This document shows, piece after piece, positions 1,579 through 35,521 of a stretch of 64,000 nucleotides of DNA; the first letter of the stretch is position 1; every line of letters begins with the position of its first letter. Source of the DNA: a phage. Position numbers and translations under genes: made by a program. Location of the stretch: the sequence record PZ379177.1; one strand, 5' to 3'. A model generated the notes under the pieces. That model saw nothing but the letters and a program-made list of their open reading frames with translations, was not told where the DNA came from and searched no databases.

Positions 1579-1584
1579 AGTTCC

Positions 1585-2856
1585 TCACACAAATTTAACG
1601 TTGATGAAGCCGCGCATAGTATTAGCCTTATCCCAAGGATTGGCAATCCACTCGCTGCCGTAATCGGATGGATAATTTGGCGCTGCCTGTCCGCTTTTAA
1701 CTGCTGCAATTTTGCAATCTTTAATGTACAGACCTGGATACTCGCAAGATACTGCTGAAGCAATCTCAAAAGAAGATTGAGATTGGCCTACTGCATATCC
1801 TTGCTCGCCGTTAAAATTTCCATTACCGTAATTCAACACAGCGGCAATAATAGATTCGGCATCGGCGGTTGCGGTGCCTCTTACAACAGTAATATCGACA
1901 TACAAGTCATATATGACAGCAGTGTTGAACTTTACGAAATAAGACAGTTGTGATTCTTCGTCGACAACTTCTATTCCATCAGGAGAGTTGACTGGATTGC
2001 CCTGGTTGGCAGCACCAAAGTCCCACGGCTGGCCGCCCATTTTCGCTTTGAAAATAGTCTCAGCAAAAACTTGCTTATCGAAAGTTCCGCTTGCGCACAC
2101 CCAAACACCGTTAGGCGTTGAAAAGGTGATGCCGCGTACCGTTCCAGGCAATCCCGTGTCGTTCTCCACGACCATCACAGATTCCACGCCGTCGACCGAC
2201 ATGGCGCGAGCGCGAATGGCACCAAGCGATGCAATGCCCTGCTGGTAAAGACGCTTAACGCGAGCGGCCTTTAATGCTCCGTCGCCCATGTATTGCGCTC
2301 CTGGCACAGTCGTCGTTGCTGATGTTGAATACGTTCTTGACCATCCGATGACGTCATAACCTTGCACCACTGTAAACTCTTCATCAGGTGCAACAGTAAA
2401 TGAGCCATACTCTTTTGATGCAAGAGTCATATTGCTTGTCTTGCCAGTCGAAGTGATTTGAACGTCTTCCAAAACATACCAGTATGTGCCATTTGAATCC
2501 GTCAGCAAACTTCCAGCAGGAATCTCCAACAGCGGCGTTCCTTCTGCGGTAATTCCTTTTAGCATCGTGCTGATGTTTTTAGTTCGCTCAATCCCAAGCA
2601 ATGCCGCGATGGCATCAAGGTATACGCCATACGAATAATTTGGGTTGATGAGACTTCCCAGCTCGGCGTTGTTCTTCATCACTGAAGTTCTTGCCAAAGT
2701 CTCCGTTGCGATTAGGGTGCCTTGCGGTGTCGAGGCATCAACGTCAAGCCCGACCCCTAATGACTCAATCCATTCACTTTGAACGTCAGCCAGCAAATCG
2801 GCTGTGTCGATGGTTATTACACCAGTGCTTACTATGTAAGAATATTGTGCACTCAT
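1585..2856 (-). CDS. Tail/baseplate structural protein (possibly baseplate J-like)
   Basis: 423-aa ORF between the spike-like gene and the fibre-like gene; its start overlaps the upstream stop. Function inferred from position only. Confidence 0.5.
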   Translation of the reverse strand: MSAQYSYIVSTGVITIDTADLLADVQSEWIESLGVGLDVDASTPQGTLIATETLARTSVMKNNAELGSLINPNYSYGVYLDAIAALLGIERTKNISTMLKGITAEGTPLLEIPAGSLLTDSNGTYWYVLEDVQITSTGKTSNMTLASKEYGSFTVAPDEEFTVVQGYDVIGWSRTYSTSATTTVPGAQYMGDGALKAARVKRLYQQGIASLGAIRARAMSVDGVESVMVVENDTGLPGTVRGITFSTPNGVWVCASGTFDKQVFAETIFKAKMGGQPWDFGAANQGNPVNSPDGIEVVDEESQLSYFVKFNTAVIYDLYVDITVVRGTATADAESIIAAVLNYGNGNFNGEQGYAVGQSQSSFEIASAVSCEYPGLYIKDCKIAAVKSGQAAPNYPSDYGSEWIANPWDKANTMRGFINVKFV

Positions 2857-3605
2857 TCTATCATATCCCCAGTTCTGTTTCCAGGTCCGTTACCTATGTG
2901 ACCGTGAGTGGATACATTTGTGCCGCCGATTGTTGTGCCAGTCGGAAGCGTTGCCGTCGTTCCTTCTTTCCCTTCTATACCACCATTGAACGTTGCCTTT
3001 CCATTAACTATCAATTGTTGGTCGATAGTGGTTATTGGTGTTTTCACATTTACTCCAGCCGATGCAGTTATGTTTATCGAGTCATCACTTAATGCGATGC
3101 GGACAGCTCCGCTGAGTGACTGGATTACCATTGAGCCTGCATCCTCTCCGCTTATGGTGTATTTTCGAAATACATCCGGTATGAACAGTCCATCAGCGAA
3201 AGTTTTCGCGCGACCATTGGTAGGCGCGGTCGGCTTCAATTCTTCAAGGAATGTCGACAACTCGCGGTCGCCAGCGAATATCCAGCCCAAATCACCTTCT
3301 TTCAAAGGAAAGTTGATTACAAAGCCGCCGCCGCCGATTGCTAATACAGGAATTGACACCAGGGGTTGACGCTCCACTGGTTTATCATCAAGACTTACGA
3401 AATGAATAACAGGCTTTATGACTGCTAAATTCTGTTTGCGGTCATAAGATATTACTTGTGCAGGAATCATGCCGTCAGTGGTATACTTGCCACGGTCCAG
3501 CATTCCCTGCAGCGCGGCAAACATACTTGATTTGTCAGTTTGGTTGGGGCTTGTAAGTTGGGTTAACTTTTCTGCCATCATAGACTCCTTATATCTGATC
3601 AACAA
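2853..3605 (-). CDS. Baseplate central spike-like protein (gpV-like)
   Basis: 250 aa. Gly-rich beta region (AIGGGGFVINFPLKEGDLGW) and a C-terminal His-rich tip (GGTNVSTHGHIGNGPG), as in metal-binding spike apex domains. Position downstream of the tape measure gene. Confidence 0.55.
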   Translation of the reverse strand: MLIRYKESMMAEKLTQLTSPNQTDKSSMFAALQGMLDRGKYTTDGMIPAQVISYDRKQNLAVIKPVIHFVSLDDKPVERQPLVSIPVLAIGGGGFVINFPLKEGDLGWIFAGDRELSTFLEELKPTAPTNGRAKTFADGLFIPDVFRKYTISGEDAGSMVIQSLSGAVRIALSDDSINITASAGVNVKTPITTIDQQLIVNGKATFNGGIEGKEGTTATLPTGTTIGGTNVSTHGHIGNGPGNRTGDMIE

Positions 3606-3638
3606 ATTATAATCTATAAGGAGTCTATAAGCAATATT

Positions 3639-4160
3639 TTAGCGATTTGACTTTGATTCTTTAATGGCAGCTTCGTTTGAGTAGGCTTCATTAAGTGATT
3701 TTGCTATTAAACCATCAAACATGGCAAATGCATCACGCAATGAATAGTATTCTTCCAACTCCTTTAAAGAGGCAAGGCCGTTATTTATTAGACTTGCAAC
3801 CATTGGCTCAAGATAATTAGGCTCTACTGTCGGTGCATCCGCCAAGAATCTATTTGGAATCTTGGTGCCTTTCCAATCGCTAAGGAATCCAAAGTTGTGC
3901 TTTTTAACGGCTTCCATTAATACTTTCAACACAAGATTAGGCGGCAAGTGATTAGGTATGCTTTTCACTTCCTCACTAATTACTTTTTCAGAATTAAGCC
4001 TTACTTTGGACCCGTCATATTTGATGACATAACATTCACTCAATAATTCAAGTGGAGTTAATATGCTTATGTCGTCCACCATTTCGAATGCATCTATTGC
4101 GCTGAATTGATGAATTTCATAAGTAACGCCAAACAAGTCAATTACTTTATTCTTTCTCAT
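3639..4160 (-). CDS. Hypothetical tail-associated protein
   Basis: 173-aa ORF inside the co-oriented tail gene string. Confidence 0.5.
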   Translation of the reverse strand: MRKNKVIDLFGVTYEIHQFSAIDAFEMVDDISILTPLELLSECYVIKYDGSKVRLNSEKVISEEVKSIPNHLPPNLVLKVLMEAVKKHNFGFLSDWKGTKIPNRFLADAPTVEPNYLEPMVASLINNGLASLKELEEYYSLRDAFAMFDGLIAKSLNEAYSNEAAIKESKSNR

Positions 4161-20290: not shown

Positions 20291-22666
20291 TCAACCTTGC
20301 TTCGGTGAATTAGTAGGATTATTGAGTGCTCCGTATGCTTGAGAGCAATCACCCTTCAACCACTCCTTGAATGAGTTCACATCTAATTCGTGGATTGAGT
20401 CGAATCCGTTCCAACCGTTACCAAATGATGCTTGATAAGCTTCTTTCGCTTCTTCTGCTGAATCGAATCCAAGCATACACTTGTGTTCATCAAACTCGCC
20501 AGAGTAGTTATCGTTTTGGTTCACGATAAAGACTTTCGGCGACTTCAGATTTGGACCCACAAAGCAGTCGACTTCATCACCGTCTGCGCCCTTGGTGCCC
20601 TTGATGAATCCGTAGTGGTGCGGCATCTTCACGGCCCATTCACCGTCAAGGCTGTTTCCTCTACGAATGCTGTTTCGCGGATTCTCAATGCCAAGAATCA
20701 TTCCGTGCAACTTCATCTTAGGTAATGATGCTGCGTCCATTTTACCCACGTTGTGGCGTAAGTTGACGACGTGTCCTTTAACGCTTGGAAGGGTAGACGG
20801 TTGCACCGACCGTGAATCTTTTTGAGGGTCAAAATCCACATCCTGACCTTCTTTCAGGTAGTAATCCGCAATACCCTCCAGCCCTTCTTTCAACTGCGTT
20901 AGGACATCAACCTGATGGCTTGATTCATCACCGGTATCGTCCATGTTGATTTCGACAGGCGCTTTGTCAGGGTTTTCCGCCAACTCACCACGCGCAGCAC
21001 CCTCTGGCATAATACCTGTTTCGCTATAGAACTGGCCGCCCATCTTAACGACATCAGCTTTCGCCTGTTCAATATCGGCCTTACCTTGCAGGACTTCACC
21101 AGCAGACTTGCCAAGCAATGCCATATTCTCTGGAGACATCCCTGGGGTTTCTTCTGCTGCGTCTTCCGGCAGACGGTTGTAGCCGCTGTTTTTGTCGTCT
21201 TTGATGCGGTCGCGCTCTTCATCAGGAGAAATGACGCCAGCATCAATAAGAGTTTTGCCAGTGTTGGCTCGCTTATCATTGATTTCTGCAAGTTGAGTAG
21301 CAGTAAGTGAGCCAACTGGTTCCCATGCAACCTTAACATCGACATCCACCCCTTCTGATTTGAGAAGGATTTTGTAATGGCGGTCGAGAATTTTTGTCAG
21401 GTCATGCTGCTGGCACGTTTCCAACTCTTCGTGATAGCTGACCATCTCGAATTCACCAGTGGCGTTAAAGCCTTTTGGCGAAGTCCCAAGCAGTTTGGTC
21501 GACGGAACTTTTGCGATTGCGGCCACAAGCTGGTACTGGTTCATGATGATGCTGTCGAAGTCTGACAAGTTGATGTCAAACTGGTCCATCTCTTCTTTTT
21601 GGCCAAGCACTTTGACTGCATAGTTGTCGCGGTACTTGATCCACATCATCAGACGTTCTGCAAAAGACCGCTCATTGGCAATAGCCTTGTCAACGTCGGT
21701 CCGCAGCGTCGTTGTACGCTTGGACATCGCCAGCAATGGCGCTTCGTTGGCGGTACGTTCAGCGGCATAGATGCGTTCATAAATCTGCTGAGTCAGAGGG
21801 ATGCCGCCGTAAATATAAGTCGGCTTGAGAATATCAGCTGGCTCATCGTTGCGCAAGATTATGAGGTGGCTGCGATGATAACGTTGTCCGCTGATTACCC
21901 AATATTCTGGGTCATAGAAGTGCTGTGATGCAGGGTCTGCCGTGTTTTCAGACGTCAGAAACGGCATCATCCAATAAGGGTCAACCTGAATGATTCCCTT
22001 ATAAGACCCCTTTGTCACACCATCAATGTTAAAAGGCTTGCTGTAATATTCTGGGTCATCGCTACGCACATCAAATATGATGACGCGGATACCAAAAATA
22101 TTTTTGAATCGTTCGGCTTCAACTAAGTGCTCTTTGATATTAAATTCTTTATCAATTTGCTTTAGGCGTTCGCTTGCCTGTACTGACAATTCTGACTCAG
22201 AACTGGATTTGACTTCCCAACCTTTACGGACCGCATCGCGGCCTACCATGGAACACGCCTTGTTCACCAGCCAATGCTGTGCGATGATGGCACAAGCTTG
22301 ATAGCCGATGAATGACTGTGACAGATACCAGTTTTGAAGTTGAATAGGTACTGTGTATGGGTTGACTTGCCCTTCTGAACTGATGTTCTTTAAGGCATTA
22401 TCCATAACCTTTTTGGATACTGTTGCGGAATCGACTGAACGACCTTTTATGATTGCAACACCATCGCCATTAATATCAGGCTCATATAAAGGGAAGTCAT
22501 CAACCGTTTTAAAGGTCGGTCGATTGCTTTCAGTCTTTTCCCAGCGTTGACCGCTGCCGCGCCTTTCAAGGCGTTCAAACGGTGCCAATGGGTCGCCTGG
22601 CGGCATCTCCGCTGGTTCGGCTTCTGGTTGCGTCTTCTCCCAGAGTTTTATGCCAAGAATTTTCAT
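20291..22666 (-). CDS. Portal protein with C-terminal inorganic-pyrophosphatase-like domain
   Basis: Large ORF between terminase and the Mu-F-like gene. Track start is TTG at 22699; ATG at 22666 (MKILGIKLW...) with AGGTGG RBS preferred. C-terminal ~150 aa carries MPHHYGFIKGTKGADGDEVDCFVG, which resembles the pyrophosphatase core [24 protein letters not shown]. Confidence 0.65.
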   Translation of the reverse strand: MKILGIKLWEKTQPEAEPAEMPPGDPLAPFERLERRGSGQRWEKTESNRPTFKTVDDFPLYEPDINGDGVAIIKGRSVDSATVSKKVMDNALKNISSEGQVNPYTVPIQLQNWYLSQSFIGYQACAIIAQHWLVNKACSMVGRDAVRKGWEVKSSSESELSVQASERLKQIDKEFNIKEHLVEAERFKNIFGIRVIIFDVRSDDPEYYSKPFNIDGVTKGSYKGIIQVDPYWMMPFLTSENTADPASQHFYDPEYWVISGQRYHRSHLIILRNDEPADILKPTYIYGGIPLTQQIYERIYAAERTANEAPLLAMSKRTTTLRTDVDKAIANERSFAERLMMWIKYRDNYAVKVLGQKEEMDQFDINLSDFDSIIMNQYQLVAAIAKVPSTKLLGTSPKGFNATGEFEMVSYHEELETCQQHDLTKILDRHYKILLKSEGVDVDVKVAWEPVGSLTATQLAEINDKRANTGKTLIDAGVISPDEERDRIKDDKNSGYNRLPEDAAEETPGMSPENMALLGKSAGEVLQGKADIEQAKADVVKMGGQFYSETGIMPEGAARGELAENPDKAPVEINMDDTGDESSHQVDVLTQLKEGLEGIADYYLKEGQDVDFDPQKDSRSVQPSTLPSVKGHVVNLRHNVGKMDAASLPKMKLHGMILGIENPRNSIRRGNSLDGEWAVKMPHHYGFIKGTKGADGDEVDCFVGPNLKSPKVFIVNQNDNYSGEFDEHKCMLGFDSAEEAKEAYQASFGNGWNGFDSIHELDVNSFKEWLKGDCSQAYGALNNPTNSPKQG

Positions 22667-22828
22667 TGTTAACGCCACCTGACAGTGAAAGGGAATCAAT
22701 CTATATTATAAATATTCATGTGTTTGTAAGCAAATGATATGTATGGTGATCATAAATAGTTCATAAAATATTTTGCTTTTGTATCATTTTGAGTTATATT
22801 TTAGTTAACTAAACGAAAGGAGATTGAA

Positions 22829-23484: not shown

Positions 23485-24945
23485 TCAAAGGTTAGAGAAG
23501 AAGCCGGATGCTGCAACAATTGGTTTCATCAACGCCATGATTGCTGCGTCCGCTTTGTTAGGCGATTTGACTCCACGCTTTGCCATATCCTTTTTCGATT
23601 CAACTTTAAACTTACCAAGCACAGACGTGTCTTTGCGCGGCGCTGACATCTCAAAAAGAAATGTCTCAATTTCTTCCGCAGACCAAGCAGGAATCCCAAG
23701 TTCTGGAATGCCGTCTGTGTCGATGGAAATCAGCTCATCAGTCGGGTATACGGCCTGCCCTGTTGCATACTCATATGTCTTCCTGAATCGTTCGGCAATC
23801 TCAGTCCATTTTTGCGCTTTTATGTTTGCGAAATGGTCTTTATTGAGTATTTCAACGTGTGGTAACTCAAGGAAGACGTCATCAGGATCATCAACAGCAC
23901 CTTGCGCGTTGAACGCATTAAATTCGATTCTTGGGAATGTTGGATTTTCATGGATTGCATACTCATTAAGCTCATCAAATTTTGAACCAGCAAATGCACC
24001 AACACCGATGGCGTCATAGGTAATTGATGCGCCGAATGTTAATGCATCTTTCCAAACTCCGCTTGCGGACTTAAGCAATTCATCTTCCAGACCTTCCCAT
24101 GTCTTGATGCCGCGCAATACGTTGCCCGTGACAAATGCTGTGGCGTTTAAGTCGTCGCCGTCGTCTGCCACGTCAAAGCCTATGCGGTTAGACCCTGACA
24201 AGCTCCATCCCAGCGTAGGGTGTTTGTGTAGGTTTAGCGCGGCCTTGACGAATGCACGGTTTATGACAGACTTGTCGCCGCCTGTCTTCGGTACTCCGCC
24301 ATAAACGTGTTCTGCCTTTTTCGGGTCGCGCTCATACATGCCAGCAATAACGTCCAGCATTGTTTGCGACAAGAATGGATTGTCCTGCCAGTTAATCTTC
24401 TTAACGATGGCGTTCTTCGGCGGTCGCATGACAAAGTTCTGGTAGACGAAATCAGCCTCTTCATCAGGGTTAAATATGATCCATATTTCGGACCCTTCCT
24501 TACGAATTGTCGGCTCAATAATGTCCCACTGCTCTTCAGTCAGCGCGTGCGCTTCCTCAAGCCAAAGAACATCAACGCCTTCTGTTGATTTGATTTCGTC
24601 AACGTTGCGTGCAATACCGTAAAATAAAAATTCAGATTTTGTTCTTTTGTGTTCAATAGAGTTCTTTAATAAGTTGAACTCGTCTTTAAAATCAGAAATC
24701 TCTATTTTGTCTTTTAATAGCGTATATACTGATTCAGAAATCTTGTTCTGGAATTGTCGGACGCAAAGGAATTTTAATTTAAAGTTTGCCGCCAAATAAA
24801 TAGCAAAACCAGCGGCATCATGCGATTTGGAAGATGCACGACCGCCGTATATTACTTTGTATCGCGCTTTCGTCTTCCAGACTTCTCTTAAAGCAGGATT
24901 CAACTGGTACATGACTTTCCAATTATGTGTTAATATTTTATTCAT
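23485..24945 (-). CDS. terL: Terminase large subunit
   Basis: 486 aa. N-terminal Walker A-like VIYGGRASSKSHD, Walker B-like VLWLEEAH, C-terminal acidic nuclease-type region GFDVADDGDD. Adjacent to portal. Confidence 0.9.
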   Translation of the reverse strand: MNKILTHNWKVMYQLNPALREVWKTKARYKVIYGGRASSKSHDAAGFAIYLAANFKLKFLCVRQFQNKISESVYTLLKDKIEISDFKDEFNLLKNSIEHKRTKSEFLFYGIARNVDEIKSTEGVDVLWLEEAHALTEEQWDIIEPTIRKEGSEIWIIFNPDEEADFVYQNFVMRPPKNAIVKKINWQDNPFLSQTMLDVIAGMYERDPKKAEHVYGGVPKTGGDKSVINRAFVKAALNLHKHPTLGWSLSGSNRIGFDVADDGDDLNATAFVTGNVLRGIKTWEGLEDELLKSASGVWKDALTFGASITYDAIGVGAFAGSKFDELNEYAIHENPTFPRIEFNAFNAQGAVDDPDDVFLELPHVEILNKDHFANIKAQKWTEIAERFRKTYEYATGQAVYPTDELISIDTDGIPELGIPAWSAEEIETFLFEMSAPRKDTSVLGKFKVESKKDMAKRGVKSPNKADAAIMALMKPIVAASGFFSNL

Positions 24946-29747: not shown

Positions 29748-29945
29748 GTGAATCAAAATGAATCAGTAGCATTCTTACAATGGCTGGAAGGTGTGGTGGA
29801 GTATTACGCTCCAAAAGACCGCTTCATCTTTCAAGGAAAAAGTTACAAGCGCAAAGGGCAGGCCCAGAAAGCAGCGCGTAAGTACTGGAAGGAAGTTTAT
29901 TCAGAGTTCTTTCAGCAGATGGGCAGCACAGTTGGTATCGATTGA
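29748..29945 (+). CDS. Hypothetical protein
   Basis: 65-aa ORF. Confidence 0.45.
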   Translation: MNQNESVAFLQWLEGVVEYYAPKDRFIFQGKSYKRKGQAQKAARKYWKEVYSEFFQQMGSTVGID

Positions 29946-30043
29946 TGAATGTTGATTTCGTGATGTTTTTGATCATATTGGCGATAAGTTCAGTATTTGT
30001 TGTCGCTATGATCGCGCTTATTGATTGGTTGGATAAATAAATC
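29945..30043 (+). CDS. Small hydrophobic peptide (32 aa)
   Basis: ATG overlaps the upstream stop (TGATG); product MNVDFVMFLIILAISSVFVVAMIALIDWLDK. Below the track cutoff. Confidence 0.3.
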
Positions 30044-30749
30044 GTGGTTTTGGTGATTTTGGTGATTTAACCGTGAATCGTGGGTCGCTGTGGCGGCCCT
30101 TTCTTTTGCCTGCCGCGCAGGAGTGTACTGCAAATTTACTGTGGGCACAAAATAGTACGGTACTGTCCAGGACTTTTTCTTTGAAAAGTTAGTGGACCAA
30201 ATGTGTCGTATTTTGATTAGTGTACTGCAAATTCCATCAAGTAGCAAAACGCACCAAAAGACCCATGCCATAAAAACCACACGAACGCAATAATCAATCG
30301 CCGTTACAGTTTCCAGCGTTACAATTCGAAAGCGAATGATTCGATGCATAATAATATGAAGCATAATGATTCGAAAGCTAATGATTGCGTGTAGGATAAT
30401 ATCGGTGGGGATTATTCTAGATGCATGTAATTTCGCATGCGTACTATTTTCGGACGAAGGGTCGGCATATTCCTCGTTTTAGTTCGGAACGAAGGGAAAG
30501 TTTTGCGCCTTTATAAAACAATGACTTACGCGACCCGCCCTAACGGTCCGATATAGGTGTCTATATAAAACAAGGACTTACGCGATGTTCTCCATTTAAC
30601 GTAATACCCGTTATGCGAACTAAGGCGCATCTCGACGAAGATTATGCGACGACGAAGGGAAGGATAAAGGAGTTTTCGCGGAGAAGCGCATCGAGATAGG
30701 GACGAAGAAAAGCCGCGACTAAGCGCGGCCTATTAGTAACGGAAGGGTA
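30040..30749. repeat. Long non-coding repeat-rich region
   Basis: No credible ORF. Contains tandem TGGTGATTT x2, GTGTACTGCAAAT at about 30124 and 30221, AATGATTCGAAAGC-like x2, ACGAAGG x4, and TATAAAACAA(T/G)GACTTACGCGA twice (30510-30535, 30561-30587). Confidence 0.6.
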
Positions 30750-31040
30750 TTATAAGGAAACGATTTTAAAGAAAGAGTAACGGCCTTCGCCTTCGGATAC
30801 CGCGAGATATTCGCCGCCGAACTCCGTAGCAAAATAAACCTTGCCTTCGATAGTAACGCGGAAGGTAGAAATATCTTCCTCTTCGAGTTCCGTAAATTCG
30901 CTAAAATCGATAGGACTATGAAGCTCCTCGATAGTCGCATCTACGTTAAAGAGATAAACGTTTTTAAGTTTTTCGCCAAATACGTTAGAGTTTTCGGAAG
31001 TTTCGGCGCGAGCGTTACGGATAGCGGCTAAAGTAATCAT
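30750..31040 (-). CDS. Small acidic early protein B (96 aa)
   Basis: Preceded by the conserved leader ...CCCAACTAGGAGATTATTATG and promoter cassette B. Acidic product. Leu codons TTA/CTC/CTT; TG/CA dinucleotides depleted. Confidence 0.55.
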   Translation of the reverse strand: MITLAAIRNARAETSENSNVFGEKLKNVYLFNVDATIEELHSPIDFSEFTELEEEDISTFRVTIEGKVYFATEFGGEYLAVSEGEGRYSFFKIVSL

Positions 31041-31099
31041 AATAATCTCCTAGTTGGGTCGGGAGGGTAGCGACCTATTCGCTACCTCATCCCCTCTCG

Positions 31100-31137
31100 A
31101 TATAAAACATTATAGTCTTAGTGTACGAAGAAGTAAA
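31100..31137 (-). promoter_or_regulatory. Sigma70-like promoter, cassette B
   Basis: In gene sense: TTTACT - 17 nt - TATAAT, followed by TTTTATATCGAGAGGGG, a stem-loop (GTAGCGAATAGGTCGCTAC) and the conserved RBS. Confidence 0.55.
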
Positions 31138-31148
31138 GCACTTTTTCA

Positions 31149-31451
31149 TTATTCTGCGATAAAATATTTATAAGCTTTATCGCCTTCTACGTCGATATAC
31201 TCGACGATAATTAACGCTTCGCCGCGAGGCGTAACCGTCTCGATAAGGGTAACGGCTTCGTCGTCGGTCTTCGCGAAGCGGATGGCGCTACGTTCGGCAT
31301 ACTTCATATCGTCGAAGGAAAGGCCGATGAAGGCGACCGCGCGGACCTTAATGGCGCTAGATTCTAGTTCCGCGTTAACGGCGGCGATAAGAGAGCGAAC
31401 AGTTAAGCGGTCTTCGTCGTAAGTAAGGATGGAAGAGATTAAAGTAGTCAT
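31149..31451 (-). CDS. Small acidic early protein C (100 aa)
   Basis: Track ORF 31149-31508 trimmed to ATG 31451 (MTTLISSIL...), which follows the conserved GGGAGCTTTATTATG leader; preceded by promoter cassette C. Confidence 0.55.
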   Translation of the reverse strand: MTTLISSILTYDEDRLTVRSLIAAVNAELESSAIKVRAVAFIGLSFDDMKYAERSAIRFAKTDDEAVTLIETVTPRGEALIIVEYIDVEGDKAYKYFIAE

Positions 31452-31497
31452 AATAAAGCTCCCGATGCTAGTAGAAGAAAGGGCCATCGCCCGTCTC

Positions 31498-31535
31498 GAT
31501 ATAAACAAGTATACGCGAGTGTACGAAGAAGTAAA
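31498..31535 (-). promoter_or_regulatory. Sigma70-like promoter, cassette C
   Basis: In gene sense: TTTACT - 16 nt - TATACT, followed by TGTTTATATCGAGACGGG. Confidence 0.5.
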
Positions 31536-31579
31536 GAAAAAAGATAAAATAATTTATCGCATTTTTATCTAAAAAGTGC

Positions 31580-31615
31580 TTTACTTTTTTCTACACTATA
31601 TTATAATGTACTCAT
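31580..31615 (+). promoter_or_regulatory. Sigma70-like promoter, cassette A
   Basis: TTTACT (31580-31585) - 16 nt - TATAAT (31602-31607), followed by CTCATATCGGGACGGG, stem-loop GTTAACGAATAGGTCGTTAAC and CCCAACTAGGAGTTTATTATG. Confidence 0.55.
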
Positions 31616-31675
31616 ATCGGGACGGGATGAGTTAACGAATAGGTCGTTAACGCCTCTCCCAACTAGGAGTTTATT

Positions 31676-31990
31676 ATGGCTATCGTTACCCGCTTTACCC
31701 TCGAAAACGCAACCGCCGAAGTCCAGGGCGTTACGCTTACTTACGGCGAAATTCTCGCTAAATTCTCCGGCGTTCGCTTAGGCGAAGAAATTAACGACGC
31801 GACGGTAATCGAGCAACTCGCTGCTTCTCGCTTAGAGCGCGACGAAAACGGATTCTTCGAAGTCGATGCGGAATTAAATTTATGCGGTAAAACGGCGTTT
31901 ATTAACGAGTTCGAACTCGCCGTTTTAGTTAATTACGATAGCAAAGCTTACGCCTTCGCCCTCGAATTAATCGAAGACGACGAAGAGTAA
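31676..31990 (+). CDS. Small strongly acidic early protein A (104 aa), DNA-mimic-like candidate
   Basis: First gene after promoter cassette A. Product has many Glu/Asp and ends ELIEDDEE. No CTG or TTG Leu codons. Confidence 0.55.
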   Translation: MAIVTRFTLENATAEVQGVTLTYGEILAKFSGVRLGEEINDATVIEQLAASRLERDENGFFEVDAELNLCGKTAFINEFELAVLVNYDSKAYAFALELIEDDEE

Positions 31991-32070
31991 GAGAGGATTT
32001 TTAGAGCGTCGTGCGCGGCGCTTTAATAAAATTCTTTCGCGCCTAGCGCCCTAACAAATAGGAGTTTATT

Positions 32071-32697
32071 ATGGTTAGCTTAAATCGCTTTTCTACTAGC
32101 GGCGACGTTATCGCAACTAAGACCGCCGACCTCGTTGCATTCTATAATGCAAATTCCGGCTCAAAACCGATTAAGAAGTTTGCGGACCGCCGGACCGCCG
32201 AGACTCGCGTAATCGCGTTAATCGAGTCCTTAAACGCGCTCGATGCGCCGTCCAACGAGTCGCCCATCCCCGACGCGAAGGCGCGCGAGGAAGTGTCCAG
32301 CGATGTAAAAACTCATAAGGCGCGTGCGGTCGTTAAAAAGGCTGAGCCGACCCAGGAAGAACTCGACGCGATGACCGACGAAGAATATGAAGCCTTCGTT
32401 AAGAGCGGTTTAAATGATAGTGCAAATTGCGTAGTGCAAAATGGAACTCCTTCCCATCGCCGTTCGAATAGCGAAGGTATTGCAAAAAGCTGGGATAATA
32501 AGGAAGTGGCGCAAAAGCGTCTCACCCGTAACGGTGTCATGGTCGAGGGTGTAGGCGAGTTCAAATCGGTCCGCGTAGCGTTCGCTGCGCTGGGATTACC
32601 GGATAGCAAGCACATTCGCTTCCGCATGAAGCTTAAGGAAGCTGGGCGCTTGAACTTCGAGTTCGGCAACAAGTCCTACACCTTCCAGATTATCTAA
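32071..32697 (+). CDS. Hypothetical protein
   Basis: 208 aa; RBS context AATAGGAGTTTATTATG resembles cassette A. Contains two in-frame TAGTGCAAA repeat copies. Confidence 0.55.
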   Translation: MVSLNRFSTSGDVIATKTADLVAFYNANSGSKPIKKFADRRTAETRVIALIESLNALDAPSNESPIPDAKAREEVSSDVKTHKARAVVKKAEPTQEELDAMTDEEYEAFVKSGLNDSANCVVQNGTPSHRRSNSEGIAKSWDNKEVAQKRLTRNGVMVEGVGEFKSVRVAFAALGLPDSKHIRFRMKLKEAGRLNFEFGNKSYTFQII

Positions 32698-32747
32698 TAG
32701 AATGGCGGCCCTTCGGGGTCGCTTTTCATAGTGCAAATTGGTGGCTT

Positions 32748-33011
32748 ATGAATACGCTCATTCTCATCGCTACGTTATCCATCGGAAGTGGTCGCACCTT
32801 ATCCCTTTACGACCATAGTGCAAATTGCGCTTATCCTACGCGCGTTGCGGCGATAGTTAATAGTGCAAATAAGATGCTATTCGAGACTTGCTGGCGGGTC
32901 GATAACGAGAAAGGTCGGGTAGTCTTAGGTTATAGTGCAAATCTGCTGGTGGAGTCGTTCGATTGGACGGTTGAAGGTCGTAAATTGTTACGGAAAGTGA
33001 CTAAAAGATGA
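32748..33011 (+). CDS. Hypothetical protein (iteron-encoded SAN repeats)
   Basis: 87-aa ORF. Three in-frame TAGTGCAAA copies give HSANC, NSANK and YSANL. Could be a reading frame imposed by the repeats rather than a functional protein. Confidence 0.4.
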   Translation: MNTLILIATLSIGSGRTLSLYDHSANCAYPTRVAAIVNSANKMLFETCWRVDNEKGRVVLGYSANLLVESFDWTVEGRKLLRKVTKR

Positions 33012-33125
33012 CTTATAATAATACACTTTCTAACGCGTTTATGGTTGTAACCTTCCCCGTCGTATTACCGATGGCCCTAGAAGTGGAGAAAATGTGTTCT
33101 AGGGCCGTTTTATAGTGCAAATTGG

Positions 33126-33614
33126 CTAGTGGCGGGAGAATTGCTCACCTTCTTTGGCCGCCTCTCCAAAATCCTTGTAGAAATCGTCCATGGAACGGCC
33201 CATTTTACTATTGCCGTTTTCATCAATCATCGTGATGCCGTAGATGATATTCAGTTCACGAATAGCATTAAGTTTGGCTGACGCCGCGACTTCTGGATCA
33301 CGCACAAGCTTGACCAAATTGTGAATTGCACCTTTTACGCTCCACAAATCCTTGAGTGGCATCTCTTCCATACGCTTTTTGAAGCGCATCTTGTAGTATG
33401 GATTGCGTTGCGCGCAAAGGATTCGCTGGCCAGTGTAGTTATCCGTTGCAACTTCCATTCCAAATACTAGTGCAAAAGCTGCGCGCATGTCATGGCCCTG
33501 AATAACAAGGTCAATGAACTCATCGAATAAAGCCTGATTGTGCTCTGCAAATCGCGGGTCTTCAAAGTCTTCAGGCATCGCTACATAATCTTGACTCATA
33601 GTGCAAAATCCCAT
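33126..33614 (-). CDS. Hypothetical protein, possible helix-turn-helix DNA-binding protein
   Basis: 162-aa ORF whose start codon lies within an iteron copy (reverse complement TTTGCACTATG). A small-terminase-like role is speculative. Confidence 0.45.
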   Translation of the reverse strand: MGFCTMSQDYVAMPEDFEDPRFAEHNQALFDEFIDLVIQGHDMRAAFALVFGMEVATDNYTGQRILCAQRNPYYKMRFKKRMEEMPLKDLWSVKGAIHNLVKLVRDPEVAASAKLNAIRELNIIYGITMIDENGNSKMGRSMDDFYKDFGEAAKEGEQFSRH

Positions 33615-33699
33615 AGTGCAAATTAATAGTGTGAATTATACAATGGATGGACATTATATTCAAGTGCAGATTGATGTTCATTATGGCTATAAACGTACA

Positions 33700-34110
33700 C
33701 AAATCATAGTGCTGAATGGATAACGGACCGTGGTGCGTGGTGTACTGTTTGATACGGATAAAAGAAATCCATCCCTTTCGCCGCTTGTTATGCAAATCAA
33801 TGACTTAGCCGCTGCTGGCTGGTTTAAGCGTATCATGACGTATCATCCGTATTGCCGCAAGTCTTTGTTTTTACTTATATCTTACGGATAATACGTTAAA
33901 TATATAAATTAACATAAGTATGAGGATGTAGAAAAAAAATTAATTTAAATTAATTCAAAATGGAGTTAATTAATTTTTGAAATAATTCTGGTTACAATAA
34001 GGAAAAATGGCGTATCATCCGTATCATCCGTAAGATTCAGTGTACAAATCCAGGCGCGGCGCACCCTAGCGCCATGATACGGATAAAAACCTATCCGTAA
34101 GAGTGTACGC
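33700..34110. repeat. TACGGAT-family repeat module, copy 2
   Basis: About 8 direct and inverted copies of GATACGGAT/ATCCGTATC flanking an AT-rich core (GAAAAAAAATTAATTTAAATTAATTC...). Shares the exact 29-mer CGTATCATCCGTATCATCCGTAAGATTC with the module at 18.2 kb. Confidence 0.75.
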
Positions 34111-34415
34111 TTCAATTAAAGAATCCAGGCGCGGCGCGGCTTTCACCACCACACACCACGGTTCACTCTCCAAAATCCGCACACTAAATTCCAAAATCCA
34201 ATGCTCATACTCCAAAAATAAATCCAAATTTCCATTTTATTTATTATTTTCATCCACAATATACTAAATTCTATCCGTATTAACCACGACTCAACCCACC
34301 ACGATTCATGCCAATCACTTCAAAATTTCCATCGAAAACGACAAAAGGCCGCGTAAAGCGACCAATTGCACACATTCCATTATTCAAAACACGTAAACGA
34401 GTGTTCTTTTATCCA

Positions 34416-34955
34416 CTATAATTTAGGCATCAATCCCTTTTCCGTTCTCCTTTTTATCTCGTCTTCTATCATTTTATTGGTCACTCTATAGCCAATCCTT
34501 TCCAATTCCATTAATACTTCCTTTTGGTATTTTCTTATTTTCACAATGTCAACCGTATCCCTCCAATAAGATAATACCTTCTTAATGACTGACTTTTCCA
34601 TTTTATATCTGGCGGTAGTCATATACTTCATTTTAAAAATAGAGTTGATCGCATCAGTCTTTAACCATTCCTTTCTTAATTCAGGATGATCATTCCAAAG
34701 AGTAATGGCGAACTCCTGCGGACTTTTGCACCTGCTTTGAAGCTCCTTTATATAGTCAGCCGTTTTTACTTTTCTATCTAAACGCGCGCGGCAAACGGTG
34801 CACTCTTCCTTGAGCAACCAATCGGCCTTCTTATCAATTTGCAAAGTTGAATTGCCATCCCTTTTATACCTGCCGCAAAAGCTTATGCCTTCATCTTTTA
34901 AGAAGTAATGCAACTCTTTAGAGTATTTCGCTTTACGCCAAAAGCCTCCCATCAC
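34416..34955 (-). CDS. Hypothetical early protein
   Basis: 179-aa ORF; Cys-containing, basic. Confidence 0.5.
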   Translation of the reverse strand: MMGGFWRKAKYSKELHYFLKDEGISFCGRYKRDGNSTLQIDKKADWLLKEECTVCRARLDRKVKTADYIKELQSRCKSPQEFAITLWNDHPELRKEWLKTDAINSIFKMKYMTTARYKMEKSVIKKVLSYWRDTVDIVKIRKYQKEVLMELERIGYRVTNKMIEDEIKRRTEKGLMPKL

Positions 34956-35521
34956 CCCTCCTTAACTACCCGATAAGCAACAACGTCCCAAGCTTCTCCG
35001 TGGTGATCCCAATGCAAAACACTCGAGTGAATTTGATCATTGCCACGTTCGCCGTTACGCATTTTGAATTCAACCATTTCCCCAGGCACCGGATTATCGC
35101 CACCAAACCACACGGTCCACGCTTCCTCCTTCGGCGCATCAGAATCCACGCCTATAGTAGCAACGACGTCATGCAACTGCTTAACGAGCGCCGACGCATC
35201 ACGGACTTGTGAGCGTAATGCAACCAACTCGCGTTGCACTTCACTGTATTTCGCTTCCAGCGCGGCATAATCAGCAAACTTCACATATGAACCAGAGGTG
35301 TCATCACCCTCTGTATTGAGCCATGCATCATTGCAGTTTACTGCATACGTTTTAACTTCACCGCATTTCGGCTCAAGCGCGACGCGACTTTTTACTTCAC
35401 TGTATTTCGCTTCCAGCGCGGCATAGTCCTCATATTCAACATAGCCGCCTTCATCATCCTTTACAACTTCGCATGTGCAAGCGTGCTGCGTGCAATAATC
35501 AACATCATAACGTTGTATCAT
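34952..35521 (-). CDS. Hypothetical early protein with internal tandem duplication
   Basis: 189 aa; contains YEDYAALEAKYSEVK and FADYAALEAKYSEVQ, encoded by a 30-bp exact DNA repeat. Confidence 0.5.
   Translation of the reverse strand: MIQRYDVDYCTQHACTCEVVKDDEGGYVEYEDYAALEAKYSEVKSRVALEPKCGEVKTYAVNCNDAWLNTEGDDTSGSYVKFADYAALEAKYSEVQRELVALRSQVRDASALVKQLHDVVATIGVDSDAPKEEAWTVWFGGDNPVPGEMVEFKMRNGERGNDQIHSSVLHWDHHGEAWDVVAYRVVKEG

What the first reader, a model, noticed from the sequence alone, without database searches (positions are those of the whole stretch)
32418..33636. Dense same-orientation TAGTGCAAA iteron array spanning genes and the start of a convergent gene
Ten exact copies of TAGTGCAAA (consensus (C/T)ATAGTGCAAAT) occur in 1.2 kb, all on one strand. 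About one chance copy of a 9-mer would be expected per roughly 260 kb. The repeats lie in-frame inside two ORFs, forcing repeated Ser-Ala-Asn tripeptides, in an intergenic gap, and across the start codon of the minus-strand gene 33126-33614. Related GTGTACTGCAAAT copies sit at about 30124 and 30221. Inference: a protein-binding array such as a replication origin, a packaging recognition site or a partition-like site, or an unusual promoter family.
Basis: seen in the sequence. Interest (0 to 1): 0.75.

Follow-up and report, generated by a model that had tools for sequence, protein, structure and literature searches.

The report
One-way repeat array beside terminase gene
A real, one-directional array of an 11-base motif sits in the terminal repeat of this E. 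coli phage, over and beside its small terminase gene. It is conserved across several phage genera and is most likely a DNA-packaging signal for a terminase family whose DNA target is unknown.

Summary
There are ten exact TAGTGCAAA copies, all on the + strand, at 32418-33622, against 0.7 expected. None occur elsewhere in the window or in a complete 68.3-kb relative.

The window is a Wifcevirus (E. coli myovirus). The array lies inside its 3.7-kb direct terminal repeat (window 30257-33961), 0.3-1.5 kb from one physical genome end.

It matches the solved E217 TerS (PDB 7UXE) at E=7e-34.

The same asymmetric motif, R-TAGTGC-R-R-A-T-Y, forms 7-14-copy one-strand arrays at the terS end in eight lineages: 84 copies, none on the opposite strand. 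These include Pantoea phage Kyle, whose TerS is only 40-43% identical.

Copies sit at non-homologous positions in different lineages, so selection acts on the DNA motif, not on the embedded peptides.

Best reading (about 0.45): a polar packaging signal read by the terminase. This is inferred; no binding was tested.

Arrays occur only with one TerS subtype. They are separable from the co-oriented Chi arrays found in relatives. The motif is not enriched or skewed in E. coli DNA. It fails tests for iterons, sigma-70 promoters, partition sites and coding repeats.

The parts
30257..33961 (.). Direct terminal repeat (DTR) of the phage genome, collapsed to one copy in this window. The physical ends map to 30257 and 33961.
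   Evidence: In the WFH record MK373776, bases 1-3701 are identical to 67583-71283. This repeat aligns to window 30257-33961 at 95-96% identity. Korf 2019 (PMC6563267) reports terminal repeats of about 3.7 kb.
32417..32427 (+). Motif copy 1, ATAGTGCAAAT, inside the 208-aa gene (reads D-S-A-N)
   Evidence: Lost with copy 2 in 3 of 14 relatives by replacement of this gene segment.
32431..32441 (+). Motif copy 2, GTAGTGCAAAA, inside the 208-aa gene in a different frame
32728..32738 (+). Motif copy 3, ATAGTGCAAAT, intergenic. It directly follows the terminator T-tract and lies 10 nt before the ATG at 32748.
   Evidence: A copy in the same place precedes the ribosome-binding site (RBS) of the small ORF in L138, L139 and L141.
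32815..32825 (+). Motif copy 4, in ORF 32748-33011 (H-S-A-N)
32860..32870 (+). Motif copy 5, in ORF 32748-33011 (N-S-A-N)
32932..32942 (+). Motif copy 6, in ORF 32748-33011 (Y-S-A-N), followed 2 nt later by a Chi site
32945..32952 (+). Chi site GCTGGTGG, on the same strand as the array. It is oriented to be active for RecBCD entering at the 33961 end.
   Evidence: Relatives carry 5-9 co-oriented Chi sites in this stretch.
33073..33106 (.). Hairpin terminator between the convergent + strand genes and terS
   Evidence: Read from the sequence. Annotated as a terminator in WFH and WFC.
33112..33122 (+). Motif copy 7, intergenic, directly after the terminator T-tract
33126..33599 (-). terS, small terminase subunit (157 aa)
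   Evidence: phmmer E=7.3e-34 and profile E=1.6e-45 to PDB 7uxe_A, the E217 small terminase. The Foldseek top hit is also 7uxe_A. It is 41% identical to Pbunavirus TerS. The start codon was fixed using the indel in relatives. Variable sites by codon position are 6/3/52.
33467..33477 (+). Motif copy 8, CTAGTGCAAAA, antisense inside terS (codons A-F-A-L-V)
   Evidence: Copies inside terS sit at non-homologous codons in other lineages.
33598..33608 (+). Motif copy 9, ATAGTGCAAAA, overlapping the terS start codon
33613..33623 (+). Motif copy 10, ATAGTGCAAAT, in the terS 5' leader
33626..33636 (+). Degenerate copy ATAGTGTGAAT, overlapping the terS -10/start region
33635..33680 (-). Two overlapping sigma-70-like promoters for terS, each with a perfect TATAAT -10 (TTGAAT-17-TATAAT and TGAACA-16-TATAAT)
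   Evidence: A -10 followed by tandem motif copies is also seen in L138 and L141.
33661..33671 (+). Degenerate copy CAAGTGCAGAT, overlapping the terS -35
33706..33717 (+). Degenerate copy ATAGTGCTGAAT (TAGTGC core kept)
32144..32154 (+). One-mismatch copy ATAATGCAAAT in the 208-aa gene
32071..32697 (+). 208-aa gene of unknown function (phrog_4730), which hosts copies 1-2
   Evidence: Variable sites by codon position are 12/18/100. No Pfam, NCBIfam or PDB match.
32748..33011 (+). 87-aa gene of unknown function, which hosts copies 4-6
   Evidence: Variable sites by codon position are 4/7/32, which indicates a real coding gene.
30217..30232 (+). TTAGTGTACTGCAAAT, the 'related' motif, 25-40 nt outside the DTR boundary at 30257
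   Evidence: Its core, CAGTACACTAAT on the opposite strand, is conserved at the same place in Kyle, L159 and L160.

Best explanation
The array is a cis-acting packaging signal read by the phage terminase.

Proposed mechanism (all steps inferred): ring-shaped small terminase (TerS), encoded inside the array, binds the asymmetric 11-bp sites R-TAGTGC-R-R-A-T-Y. These are scattered over about 1.2 kb at the terS end of the direct terminal repeat. Because every site points the same way, the bound complex gives the large terminase a polarity for the exact cut at the repeat boundary about 330 bp away (33961/33962). The signal could act at initiation, like lambda cosB or a pac site. Alternatively it could act as a one-way slow-down and termination signal as the motor approaches the terminal cut, like lambda cosQ. 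In Wifcevirus, copies lying over the terS promoter, leader and start codon would also let TerS limit its own synthesis.

Shown here: the motif array, its polarity and uniqueness, its position in the repeat, the TerS identity of the gene, conservation across genera, turnover of copy positions, and restriction to one TerS subtype.

Not shown: that TerS or any protein binds the motif, and the direction of packaging.
For: 1. The gene inside the array is TerS: 7uxe_A at E=7.3e-34 (single sequence) and 1.6e-45 (profile), and it is the Foldseek top hit. In P22 the pac site lies within the terS gene and in SPP1 the contact points flank the initial cut (review PMC9611059).
2. The array lies in the DTR, 325-1543 bp from a physical end. 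In Pantoea phage Kyle it lies 477-1478 bp from the same end.
3. It is unique in the genome: 10 of 10 copies fall within 1.2 kb of a complete 68.3-kb relative. In Kyle, 14 copies lie in the array against 5 on that strand in the other 68 kb.
4. In eight lineages, 84 copies lie on one strand and none on the other, with one shared consensus, although TerS falls to 40-43% identity.
5. Copies inside terS occupy non-homologous codons in different lineages, always as TTT-GCA-CTA (F-A-L). Motif columns are less variable than flanks: 3/87 against 125/873, p=0.0025. Selection therefore acts on the DNA motif.
6. A prediction was tested. TerS proteins with (Q/K/R)-R before the invariant NPYY (window, L138-L141, Kyle) carry arrays. 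Two further lineages chosen only for that residue pattern (P0008, P0010) also carry arrays of 13-14 and 9 copies. Seven lineages with E-x at that position carry none: Pbunavirus, Burkholderia WTB, Serratia Hera, L153-155, L161, L162, L163. E217 TerS, which is E-S type, showed no appreciable DNA binding in vitro (PMC9611059).
7. The array is separable from the Chi arrays. Hera has Chi without TAGTGC. Wifcevirus and L138 have TAGTGC with one or no Chi.
8. A TAGTG-containing element on the same strand marks the other DTR boundary in four lineages.
Against: - No binding data exist.
- The array spans 1.2 kb with irregular, unphased spacing of 10-464 bp. From my recollection this is far larger than known pac or cosB sites (roughly 100-300 bp), and it does not fit simple wrapping around one ring.
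- A second repeat family, TATCCG/CGGATA, flanks the actual boundary at 33961. It is also present in lineages without TAGTGC arrays, so it is a rival candidate for the true terminase recognition and cut signal.
- The link between TerS subtype and array may reflect a single ancestral event, so it is confounded by phylogeny.
- The motif stays the same while TerS diverges to 40-43% identity. This would also fit a more conserved or host partner.
- In Kyle, L159 and L160 no copy overlaps the terS promoter, so autoregulation cannot be the general function.
Confidence: 0.45

Rival explanations
1. The motif is a Chi-like polar signal. It would be read by an enzyme that enters at, or translocates from, the nearby DNA end: a host or phage helicase-nuclease, or the recombination machinery acting on the terminal repeat. 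It would work by density, not position, to protect or process the terS-side end.
For: - The array has a single orientation relative to the physical end, and copy positions turn over while density is kept.
- In five lineages the array is interleaved with Chi arrays of 5-9 copies on the same strand and in the same stretch.
- Terminal Chi clusters are a known phage strategy, in P1 and lambdoid LLS (PMC12315714).
- The motif is unchanged across phages whose TerS has diverged by about 60%.
Against: - TAGTGC is neither over-represented nor skewed in 100 kb of E. coli K-12 (14 against 10, with 24 expected). Chi in the same sample is 19 against 1.
- Serratia phage Hera has the Chi array but no TAGTGC.
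- I know of no E. coli enzyme that recognises this sequence (recollection only).
- Presence of the array tracks the phage TerS subtype.
Confidence: 0.15
2. The array is a set of binding sites for another phage DNA-binding protein made from the terminal repeat, for example the conserved protein of about 200 aa. This protein would form a nucleoprotein domain that silences terS and the convergent early genes, or caps the end.
For: - In Wifcevirus, L138 and L141, tandem copies sit between the terS -10 and its start codon, an operator-like position.
- The neighbouring genes are conserved across all array-bearing lineages and have no assigned function.
Against: - Most copies lie inside coding regions, far from promoters.
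- In Kyle, L159 and L160 none lies upstream of terS.
- Genes of similar size lie in the equivalent position next to terS in Pbunavirus, which has no array; their homology to the array-bearing phages' genes was not tested.
- No DNA-binding domain was detected in any DTR protein.
Confidence: 0.15
3. The array is a replication element: either an iteron-type origin or a cluster of one-strand priming sites for the phage primase, placed near the 3' end of the template strand.
For: - An AT-rich, repeat-rich 0.8-kb non-coding stretch adjoins the array (33620-34400, GC about 0.40).
- In Burkholderia WTB, Serratia Hera and L160 a primase or helicase gene lies on the other side of that non-coding stretch, immediately or a few small genes upstream of terS.
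- All copies lie on one strand.
Against: - Spacing is irregular and shows no helical phasing.
- No initiator gene is adjacent.
- The array runs through three genes.
- The primase and helicase are shared by family members that lack the array.
Confidence: 0.08
4. The motif is a family of unusual promoters, a -10-like ATAGT element.
For: - Some copies read TATAGT or CATAGT.
- Copies at 32729 and 33113 follow terminators, and one precedes the RBS of the small ORF in four lineages.
- TATAATGCAAAT occurs at 32143.
Against: - The base at the would-be -11 position is A 42, G 26, C 9, T 7 across the 84 copies, yet A-11 is essential for sigma-70.
- The promoter scan found no -35 partner at any copy on the + strand.
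- Most copies lie inside genes or antisense to terS.
- No phage RNA polymerase or sigma factor was found among the large ORFs tested.
Confidence: 0.03

Closest known systems
Phage P1 pac site (hexamer repeats bound by PacA)
   Same: - Several copies of a short asymmetric motif serve as the terminase recognition signal.
- The signal is located in or next to the small-terminase gene.
- Chi sites cluster in the adjacent terminally redundant DNA (P1 Chi clustering: PMC12315714; the pac details are from my own recollection).
   Different: - As I recall, P1 pac is about 160 bp, with hexamers on both sides of the cut, and is regulated by Dam methylation. Packaging there is headful.
- Here the array is 1.2 kb, lies entirely to one side of the cut at 0.3-1.5 kb, contains no GATC in the motif, and the genome has exact 3.7-kb direct terminal repeats.
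Lambda cosB (gpNu1 R sites) and cosQ (polar termination signal)
   Same: - These are TerS-bound repeats next to the cut site.
- cosQ is an orientation-dependent signal read by the translocating terminase.
   Different: - Lambda has three R sites in about 120 bp and a single cosQ (my recollection).
- No sequence similarity to the motif here.
- Here 10-14 copies are spread through coding genes.
E217 / Pbunavirus small terminase (PDB 7UXE)
   Same: The TerS encoded in the array is a clear homologue: 41-42% identity, E=7e-34. In both phage groups terS lies far from terL.
   Different: - E217 TerS showed no appreciable DNA binding in vitro, and no pac site is known for it (PMC9611059).
- Pbunavirus has no array near terS.
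- Pbunavirus has E-S where the array-bearing phages have (Q/K/R)-R before NPYY.
Short repeat arrays flanking the terminal repeat of T7 (SRL/SRR)
   Same: These are arrays of a short direct repeat, irregularly spaced, next to the DTR of a phage with exact ends. Their function is still unsettled. (My recollection of Dunn and Studier 1983; not checked with the tools.)
   Different: The T7 arrays lie outside the 160-bp repeat and in non-coding DNA. Here the array lies inside a 3.7-kb repeat and overlaps genes, including terS.
T5 injection-stop region in the left terminal repeat
   Same: It is a cis-acting repeat cluster inside a long terminal repeat that carries early genes (Davison preprint 10.1101/866236).
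   Different: - The T5 region is untranslated, with inverted repeats, palindromes and 8 DnaA boxes.
- Here there is one polar motif, mostly within genes.
- By my hand comparison, the motif's reverse complement matches the DnaA-box consensus TTWTNCACA at 7-8 of 9 positions and fails a relaxed consensus at 3 positions.
Chi (RecBCD) and other polar motifs such as KOPS
   Same: The motif has strict single orientation relative to a DNA end. It appears to act by density rather than position. In relatives it is interleaved with true Chi arrays.
   Different: It is not enriched or skewed in host DNA, and no enzyme is known to recognise it.

Membership tests
Terminase recognition (pac / cosB-type) site | Lies in or next to the small-terminase gene | tested here: met
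   terS (33126-33599) is inside the array. The TerS identity comes from matches to 7uxe_A.
Terminase recognition (pac / cosB-type) site | Lies close to the site where genome ends are cut | tested here: met
   The last exact copy is 340 bp from the DTR boundary at 33961, mapped by homology to WFH. The geometry is the same in Kyle. The ends themselves were not measured for this phage.
Terminase recognition (pac / cosB-type) site | Unique in the genome | tested here: met
Terminase recognition (pac / cosB-type) site | Site specificity tracks TerS type | tested here: inconclusive
   Arrays are present in 8 of 8 lineages with (Q/K/R)R-NPYY TerS, including two predicted in advance. They are absent in 7 of 7 lineages with E-x-NPYY. 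The array-bearing lineages probably form one clade, so this may be a single event.
Terminase recognition (pac / cosB-type) site | TerS binds the site, and the site is required in cis for packaging | not testable with these tools
   Needs EMSA or ChIP, and recoding or transduction assays.
Iteron-type replication origin | Direct repeats of about 17-22 bp at regular, helically phased spacing | tested here: not met
   The motif is 11 bp. Spacings run from 10 to 464 bp, with no 10-11 bp periodicity (R about 0.09, p>0.5).
Iteron-type replication origin | Adjacent gene for an initiator (Rep) protein | tested here: not met
   The adjacent genes are terS and proteins of unknown function. No Rep domain was found.
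Iteron-type replication origin | Adjoining AT-rich unwinding region | tested here: inconclusive
   33001-35000 has GC of 0.40 and many repeats, but this stretch also holds the DTR boundary.
Sigma-70 promoter family | -10 hexamer with invariant A at -11 and T at -7, plus a -35 at 16-18 bp | tested here: not met
   The would-be -11 base is A 42, G 26, C 9, T 7. No + strand promoter-like site was called at any copy.
Sigma-70 promoter family | Sites lie upstream of genes, in the sense orientation | tested here: not met
   Seven of ten copies lie inside genes or antisense to terS.
Chi-like host polar signal | Single orientation relative to the DNA end | tested here: met
   84 copies on one strand, none on the other. 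This is the same strand as Chi.
Chi-like host polar signal | Over-represented and strand-skewed in the host chromosome | tested here: not met
   In 100 kb of E. coli K-12, TAGTGC is 14 against 10 (24 expected), while Chi is 19 against 1.
Partition (parS / centromere) site | Adjacent ParA/ParB-type genes, with palindromic or regularly phased repeats | tested here: not met
   No such domains were found in the DTR proteins. The motif is asymmetric and its spacing is irregular.
Protein-coding repeat | Copies lie in one reading frame of one protein and are conserved as peptide | tested here: not met
   Copies lie in three genes, in two frames of one gene, antisense in terS (as F-A-L), and in intergenic DNA. 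Codons are identical at every copy, and positions differ between lineages.

The most novel reading that the evidence does not exclude
R-TAGTGC-R-R-A-T-Y may be a new orientation-dependent control sequence that is read by a moving machine, not a static operator. One version: a repeated one-way brake or termination signal that lets the packaging motor stop and cut exactly at the end of a long terminal repeat. Another version: a phage-specific Chi-like signal that tames an end-entering helicase-nuclease. In the second version, early-made TerS bound to the sites could act as the roadblock.
Probability: 0.22. Interest if true: 0.8.

Novelty: new variant of a known kind. Interest (0 to 1): 0.62.

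Why it matters
How small terminases recognise viral DNA is a long-standing open problem. For the E217/Pbunavirus TerS family no DNA target is known, and the purified protein did not bind DNA in vitro (PMC9611059). This array offers a concrete candidate site for the enterobacterial branch of that family: an 11-bp sequence, conserved across genera, with defined polarity and copy number. It is directly testable by EMSA, ChIP, synonymous recoding and plasmid transduction.

It also bears on how phages with long exact terminal repeats mark their ends. The relatives add new cases of terminal Chi arrays in lytic myoviruses. If the motif is instead a signal read in one direction by a moving enzyme, it would be a new kind of polar control sequence.

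Tried and rejected
- An IMG/VR scan for paired copies (TAGTGCAAA-N3-33-TAGTGCAAA) returned more than 120 loci. Almost all were unrelated chance or tandem-repeat matches; only one was a Wifcevirus.
- Pfam, PHROGs and NCBIfam gave no function for any DTR protein. TerS was recognised only through the PDB sequence search.
- Rfam found nothing in 29800-34600.
- No homologous DNA was found in 5,426 E. coli genomes or in PLSDB plasmids, so no satellite or prophage copy was found.
- Full-text searches for the motif, and of Wifcevirus papers, found no description of it.
- The E217 terminase paper (PMC10026623) is not held.
- The homologue search for the 208-aa protein was saturated by near-identical Wifcevirus sequences. 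No useful alignment or structure could be made, so the second structure job was not used.
- I compared the motif by hand, from memory, with the consensus sites of DnaA, IHF, Fis, CRP, sigma-54, NtrC, marbox, ops, Ter and EcoKI. None fits.
- Helical phasing of the copies was tested and is absent. The only periodicity is a multiple-of-3 bias from embedding in codons.
- Pbunavirus, Burkholderia WTB, Serratia Hera and L153-155 were searched for an analogous array of a different motif near terS by ranking 8-mers with up to one mismatch. L161-L163 were searched with exact 6- and 8-mers. None stood above shuffled controls (where run) except Chi in Hera.
Full report
**1.

TAGTGCAAA occurs ten times in the 64-kb window. 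All copies are on the + strand, between 32418 and 33622. The expected count is 0.70, and none of 100 dinucleotide-preserving shuffles reached ten. Allowing mismatches adds four degenerate copies on the same strand: 32144, 33626, 33661 and 33706. A complete 68,319-nt Wifcevirus genome (OZ035737) holds exactly ten copies, on one strand, within 1.2 kb, and none elsewhere.

- The three copies in ORF 32748-33011 share a frame (x-S-A-N), but the two in ORF 32071-32697 are in different frames.
- The minus-strand gene starts at the ATG at 33599-33597, not at 33614. A 1-nt indel in many relatives puts the upstream ATG out of frame.

**2. Where the array sits**

The window is 91-96% identical to Wifcevirus phages, which are E. 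coli and Shigella myoviruses of 66-72 kb. The 208-aa protein encoded in the array is 100% identical to that of phage Mansfield. WFH and WFC were deposited with direct terminal repeats of about 3.7 kb (PMC6563267). In WFH, bases 1-3701 equal 67583-71283, and this repeat maps to window 30257-33961. The array is therefore inside the terminal repeat, 325-1543 bp from the physical end at 33961.

The repeat holds six genes in three transcription units, with three near-identical sigma-70-type early promoters. Codon-position patterns of variation across 15 genomes show that ORFs 32071-32697, 32748-33011 and 33126-33599 are real genes (12/18/100, 4/7/32 and 6/3/52). The 108-nt ORF annotated in some relatives at 33008-33115 is probably not a gene (5/7/8).

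**3. The convergent gene is the small terminase**

No Pfam, PHROG-function or NCBIfam match exists for it. A search of solved structures, however, matches it to 7uxe_A, the small terminase of Pseudomonas phage E217. The match is E=7.3e-34 with the single sequence and 1.6e-45 with a profile, at 42% identity over residues 3-147. An AlphaFold model (pLDDT 73.6) has 7uxe_A as its only significant Foldseek hit, followed by the PaP3 and NV1 small terminases. TerL (23485-24945) and portal (20291-22699) lie about 8-10 kb away.

A review of small terminases records two relevant points about E217. Its terS also lies far from terL, and E217 TerS showed no appreciable DNA binding in vitro (PMC9611059). 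No DNA target is therefore known for this family.

**4. The array is conserved far beyond the genus, as a DNA signal**

Within 14 Wifcevirus genomes the copies sit at homologous positions. Two are lost in three genomes through replacement of a segment of the 208-aa gene. For copies 3-10, motif columns vary less than their surroundings: 3/87 against 125/873, p=0.0025.

More distant TerS homologues at 40-68% identity were traced to their contigs: L138-L141, L159, L160 and Pantoea phage Kyle (Kylevirus). Each carries 7-14 copies of TAGTGC with the same flanks. All copies lie on the strand antisense to terS, in the same terS-proximal stretch. Pooled, there are 84 copies on one strand and none on the other. 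The consensus is R-TAGTGC-R-R-A-T-Y.

In Kyle's complete genome (DTR of 3603 bp), 14 copies lie 477-1478 bp from the left end. Only 5 lie on that strand in the other 68 kb.

Inside terS the copies occupy non-homologous codons in different lineages: nt 123 in the window and L138, nt 33 in L139 and L141, nt 48 in L140, plus others. They always read TTT-GCA-CTA (F-A-L). Copy positions thus turn over while number, strand and region are kept. This is the signature of selection on the DNA motif itself and excludes a coding-repeat explanation.

**5. What it is not**

- *Spacing.* Distances between copies run from 10 to 464 bp with no helical phasing. There is only a multiple-of-3 bias, from embedding in codons.
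- *Iteron origin.* No initiator, ParA/ParB or other DNA-binding domain is detectable next to the array.
- *Sigma-70 promoter.* The base that would be the essential -11 A of a -10 element is A, G, C or T (42/26/9/7). No -35 partner is found, and most copies lie inside genes or antisense to terS.
- *Known RNA or host copy.* Rfam finds nothing. No homologous DNA exists in E. coli genomes or plasmids. No paper in the held library mentions the motif.

**6. Chi arrays in the same place**

One perfect Chi (32945) and three one-mismatch Chi-like sites lie on the + strand of the array region, with none on the minus strand. In relatives this becomes striking. L139, L141, L159, L160 and Kyle each have 5-9 perfect Chi sites, all on the same strand as TAGTGC and interleaved with it. 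Serratia phage Hera has a Chi-like array near terS: 14 sites with up to one mismatch on one strand, none on the other.

The orientation is the one that is active for RecBCD entering at the terS-side end. Terminal Chi clusters are already known for P1 and for lambdoid phages that lack recombination genes (PMC12315714), so this is a further example of a known strategy.

It matters here for two reasons. It independently marks this end as one that is exposed. It also raised the possibility that TAGTGC is itself a Chi-like signal. Two tests speak against the simple form of that idea:
- In 100 kb of E. coli K-12, Chi is 19 against 1, while TAGTGC is 14 against 10 and under-represented.
- The two arrays are separable. 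Hera has Chi only. Wifcevirus and L138 have TAGTGC with one or no Chi.

**7. A tested prediction linking the array to the TerS subtype**

Aligning TerS from array-bearing and array-free phages shows a charge switch just before the invariant NPYY, at the end of a predicted helix. Array-bearing phages have (Q/K/R)-R. Pbunavirus, Burkholderia WTB and Serratia Hera have E-(S/A).

From a profile search I then chose homologues only by this residue pattern. Both K-R lineages (P0008, P0010) turned out to carry arrays of 13-14 and 9 copies. The E-R, E-K and E-M lineages, and the E-H lineage L153-155, carry none. The score is 8 of 8 against 0 of 7.

The array-bearing lineages probably form one clade, however, so this is suggestive and not independent evidence. 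It does fit the reported lack of DNA binding by the E-S-type E217 protein.

**8. Best explanation and its limits**

I read the array as a polar packaging signal read by the terminase through TerS (confidence about 0.45). The grounds are:
- its position over terS;
- its closeness to the cut site;
- its uniqueness in the genome;
- its polarity;
- its restriction to one TerS subtype;
- a TAGTG-containing element, conserved in four lineages, on the same strand at the other repeat boundary (30217-32).

Whether it acts at initiation (pac/cosB-like) or as a one-way approach and termination signal (cosQ-like) cannot be decided. The Chi orientation hints that the terS end is the exposed, possibly first-ejected and last-packaged end, which would favour the termination version. 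That is inference only.

In Wifcevirus, L138 and L141, tandem copies between the terS -10 and its ATG suggest added autoregulation. Kyle, L159 and L160 lack this arrangement, so it cannot be the core function.

The main caveats are:
- no binding data;
- an unusually large and irregular array;
- a second repeat family (TATCCG/CGGATA) that flanks the boundary at 33961 itself and also occurs in array-free lineages. This family may be the actual recognition and cut signal.

Rivals are a Chi-like signal for an end-entering enzyme (0.15), sites for another early phage protein (0.15), a replication or priming element (0.08) and promoters (0.03).

**9. Novelty and verdict**

The array is real, strongly non-random, conserved across at least two named genera (Wifcevirus, Kylevirus) and several uncultivated lineages, and undescribed in the literature I could search. 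If it is a terminase signal, it is a new variant of a known kind. It would also give a testable DNA target for a TerS family that has none. If it is a signal read in one direction by a moving enzyme, it would be further from anything known. Interest: 0.62.

Noticed in passing
window 32945-32952 (+); also 32890, 33125, 33811; relatives L139, L141, L159, L160, Kyle (L156), Hera (L144): The window has one perfect Chi site and three one-mismatch Chi-like sites, all on the + strand of the array region. Relatives carry 5-9 perfect Chi sites on one strand in the same terS-proximal part of the terminal repeat. The sites are oriented for RecBCD entering at the terS-side end. Serratia phage Hera has a Chi-like array there without any TAGTGC.
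   Followed up: yes
window 33750-34290 (e.g. 33839-33851, 34011-34032, 33879-33895, 34078-34100): A second repeat family, TATCCG(T)A / TACGGATA, occurs in both orientations and flanks the terminal-repeat boundary at 33961. It is also enriched upstream of terS in Kyle, L139, L141, and in the array-free lineages L162 and L163. It is a candidate for the real terminase recognition and cut signal, or for an origin.
   Followed up: partly
window 30217-30232 (+), and 30120-30135: TTAGTGTACTGCAAAT lies 25-40 nt outside the other repeat boundary (30257). Its core, CAGTACACTAAT on the opposite strand, is conserved at the same distance from terS in Kyle, L159 and L160, although the flanking DNA has diverged.
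   Followed up: partly
window 30055-30075 and 34157-34177: An inverted pair containing CACGGTTCAC lies about 200 nt outside each boundary of the terminal repeat. The related 9-mer TCACGGTTC is the most frequent 9-mer in the 12.5-kb terS locus L138 (7 copies).
   Followed up: no
window 31109-31146 (-), 31508-31540 (-), 31571-31607 (+): Three near-identical early promoters (AAAAAGTGCTTTACTTCTTCGTACAC...TATAAT) drive the divergent gene pairs inside the terminal repeat.
   Followed up: no
window 33126-33599 (-) and relatives' records: terS is annotated as 'hypothetical protein' in nearly all Wifcevirus, Kylevirus and Pbunavirus records seen. In WFH its start is over-extended by 144 nt, through its own promoter (WFH_00001, 202-834).
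   Followed up: yes
window 20291-22699 (-): The portal protein carries a C-terminal inorganic pyrophosphatase domain (PF18823, E=3e-46), an unusual fusion.
   Followed up: no
window 32400-32445 versus RCIP0319, vB_Eco4M-7, IMGVR_2706795708: A short segment of the 208-aa gene is replaced by a divergent allele in three genomes. The replacement removes motif copies 1 and 2 without disrupting the gene.
   Followed up: partly
window 30315-30402: Overlapping direct repeats of about 15-30 nt (AATGATTCGAAAGC...) lie just inside the 30257 end of the terminal repeat. A similar AATGATTC-rich stretch is frequent in L140.
   Followed up: no
IMG/VR loci L019, L020, L029, L068, L125 (contigs of about 13.9 kb): These unrelated linear-looking contigs have inverted terminal repeats. 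In the two I read (L019, L020), each end holds four copies of a GA(T)TWGTGCAAA motif within about 100 nt. The shared 9-mer is probably a coincidence.
   Followed up: no
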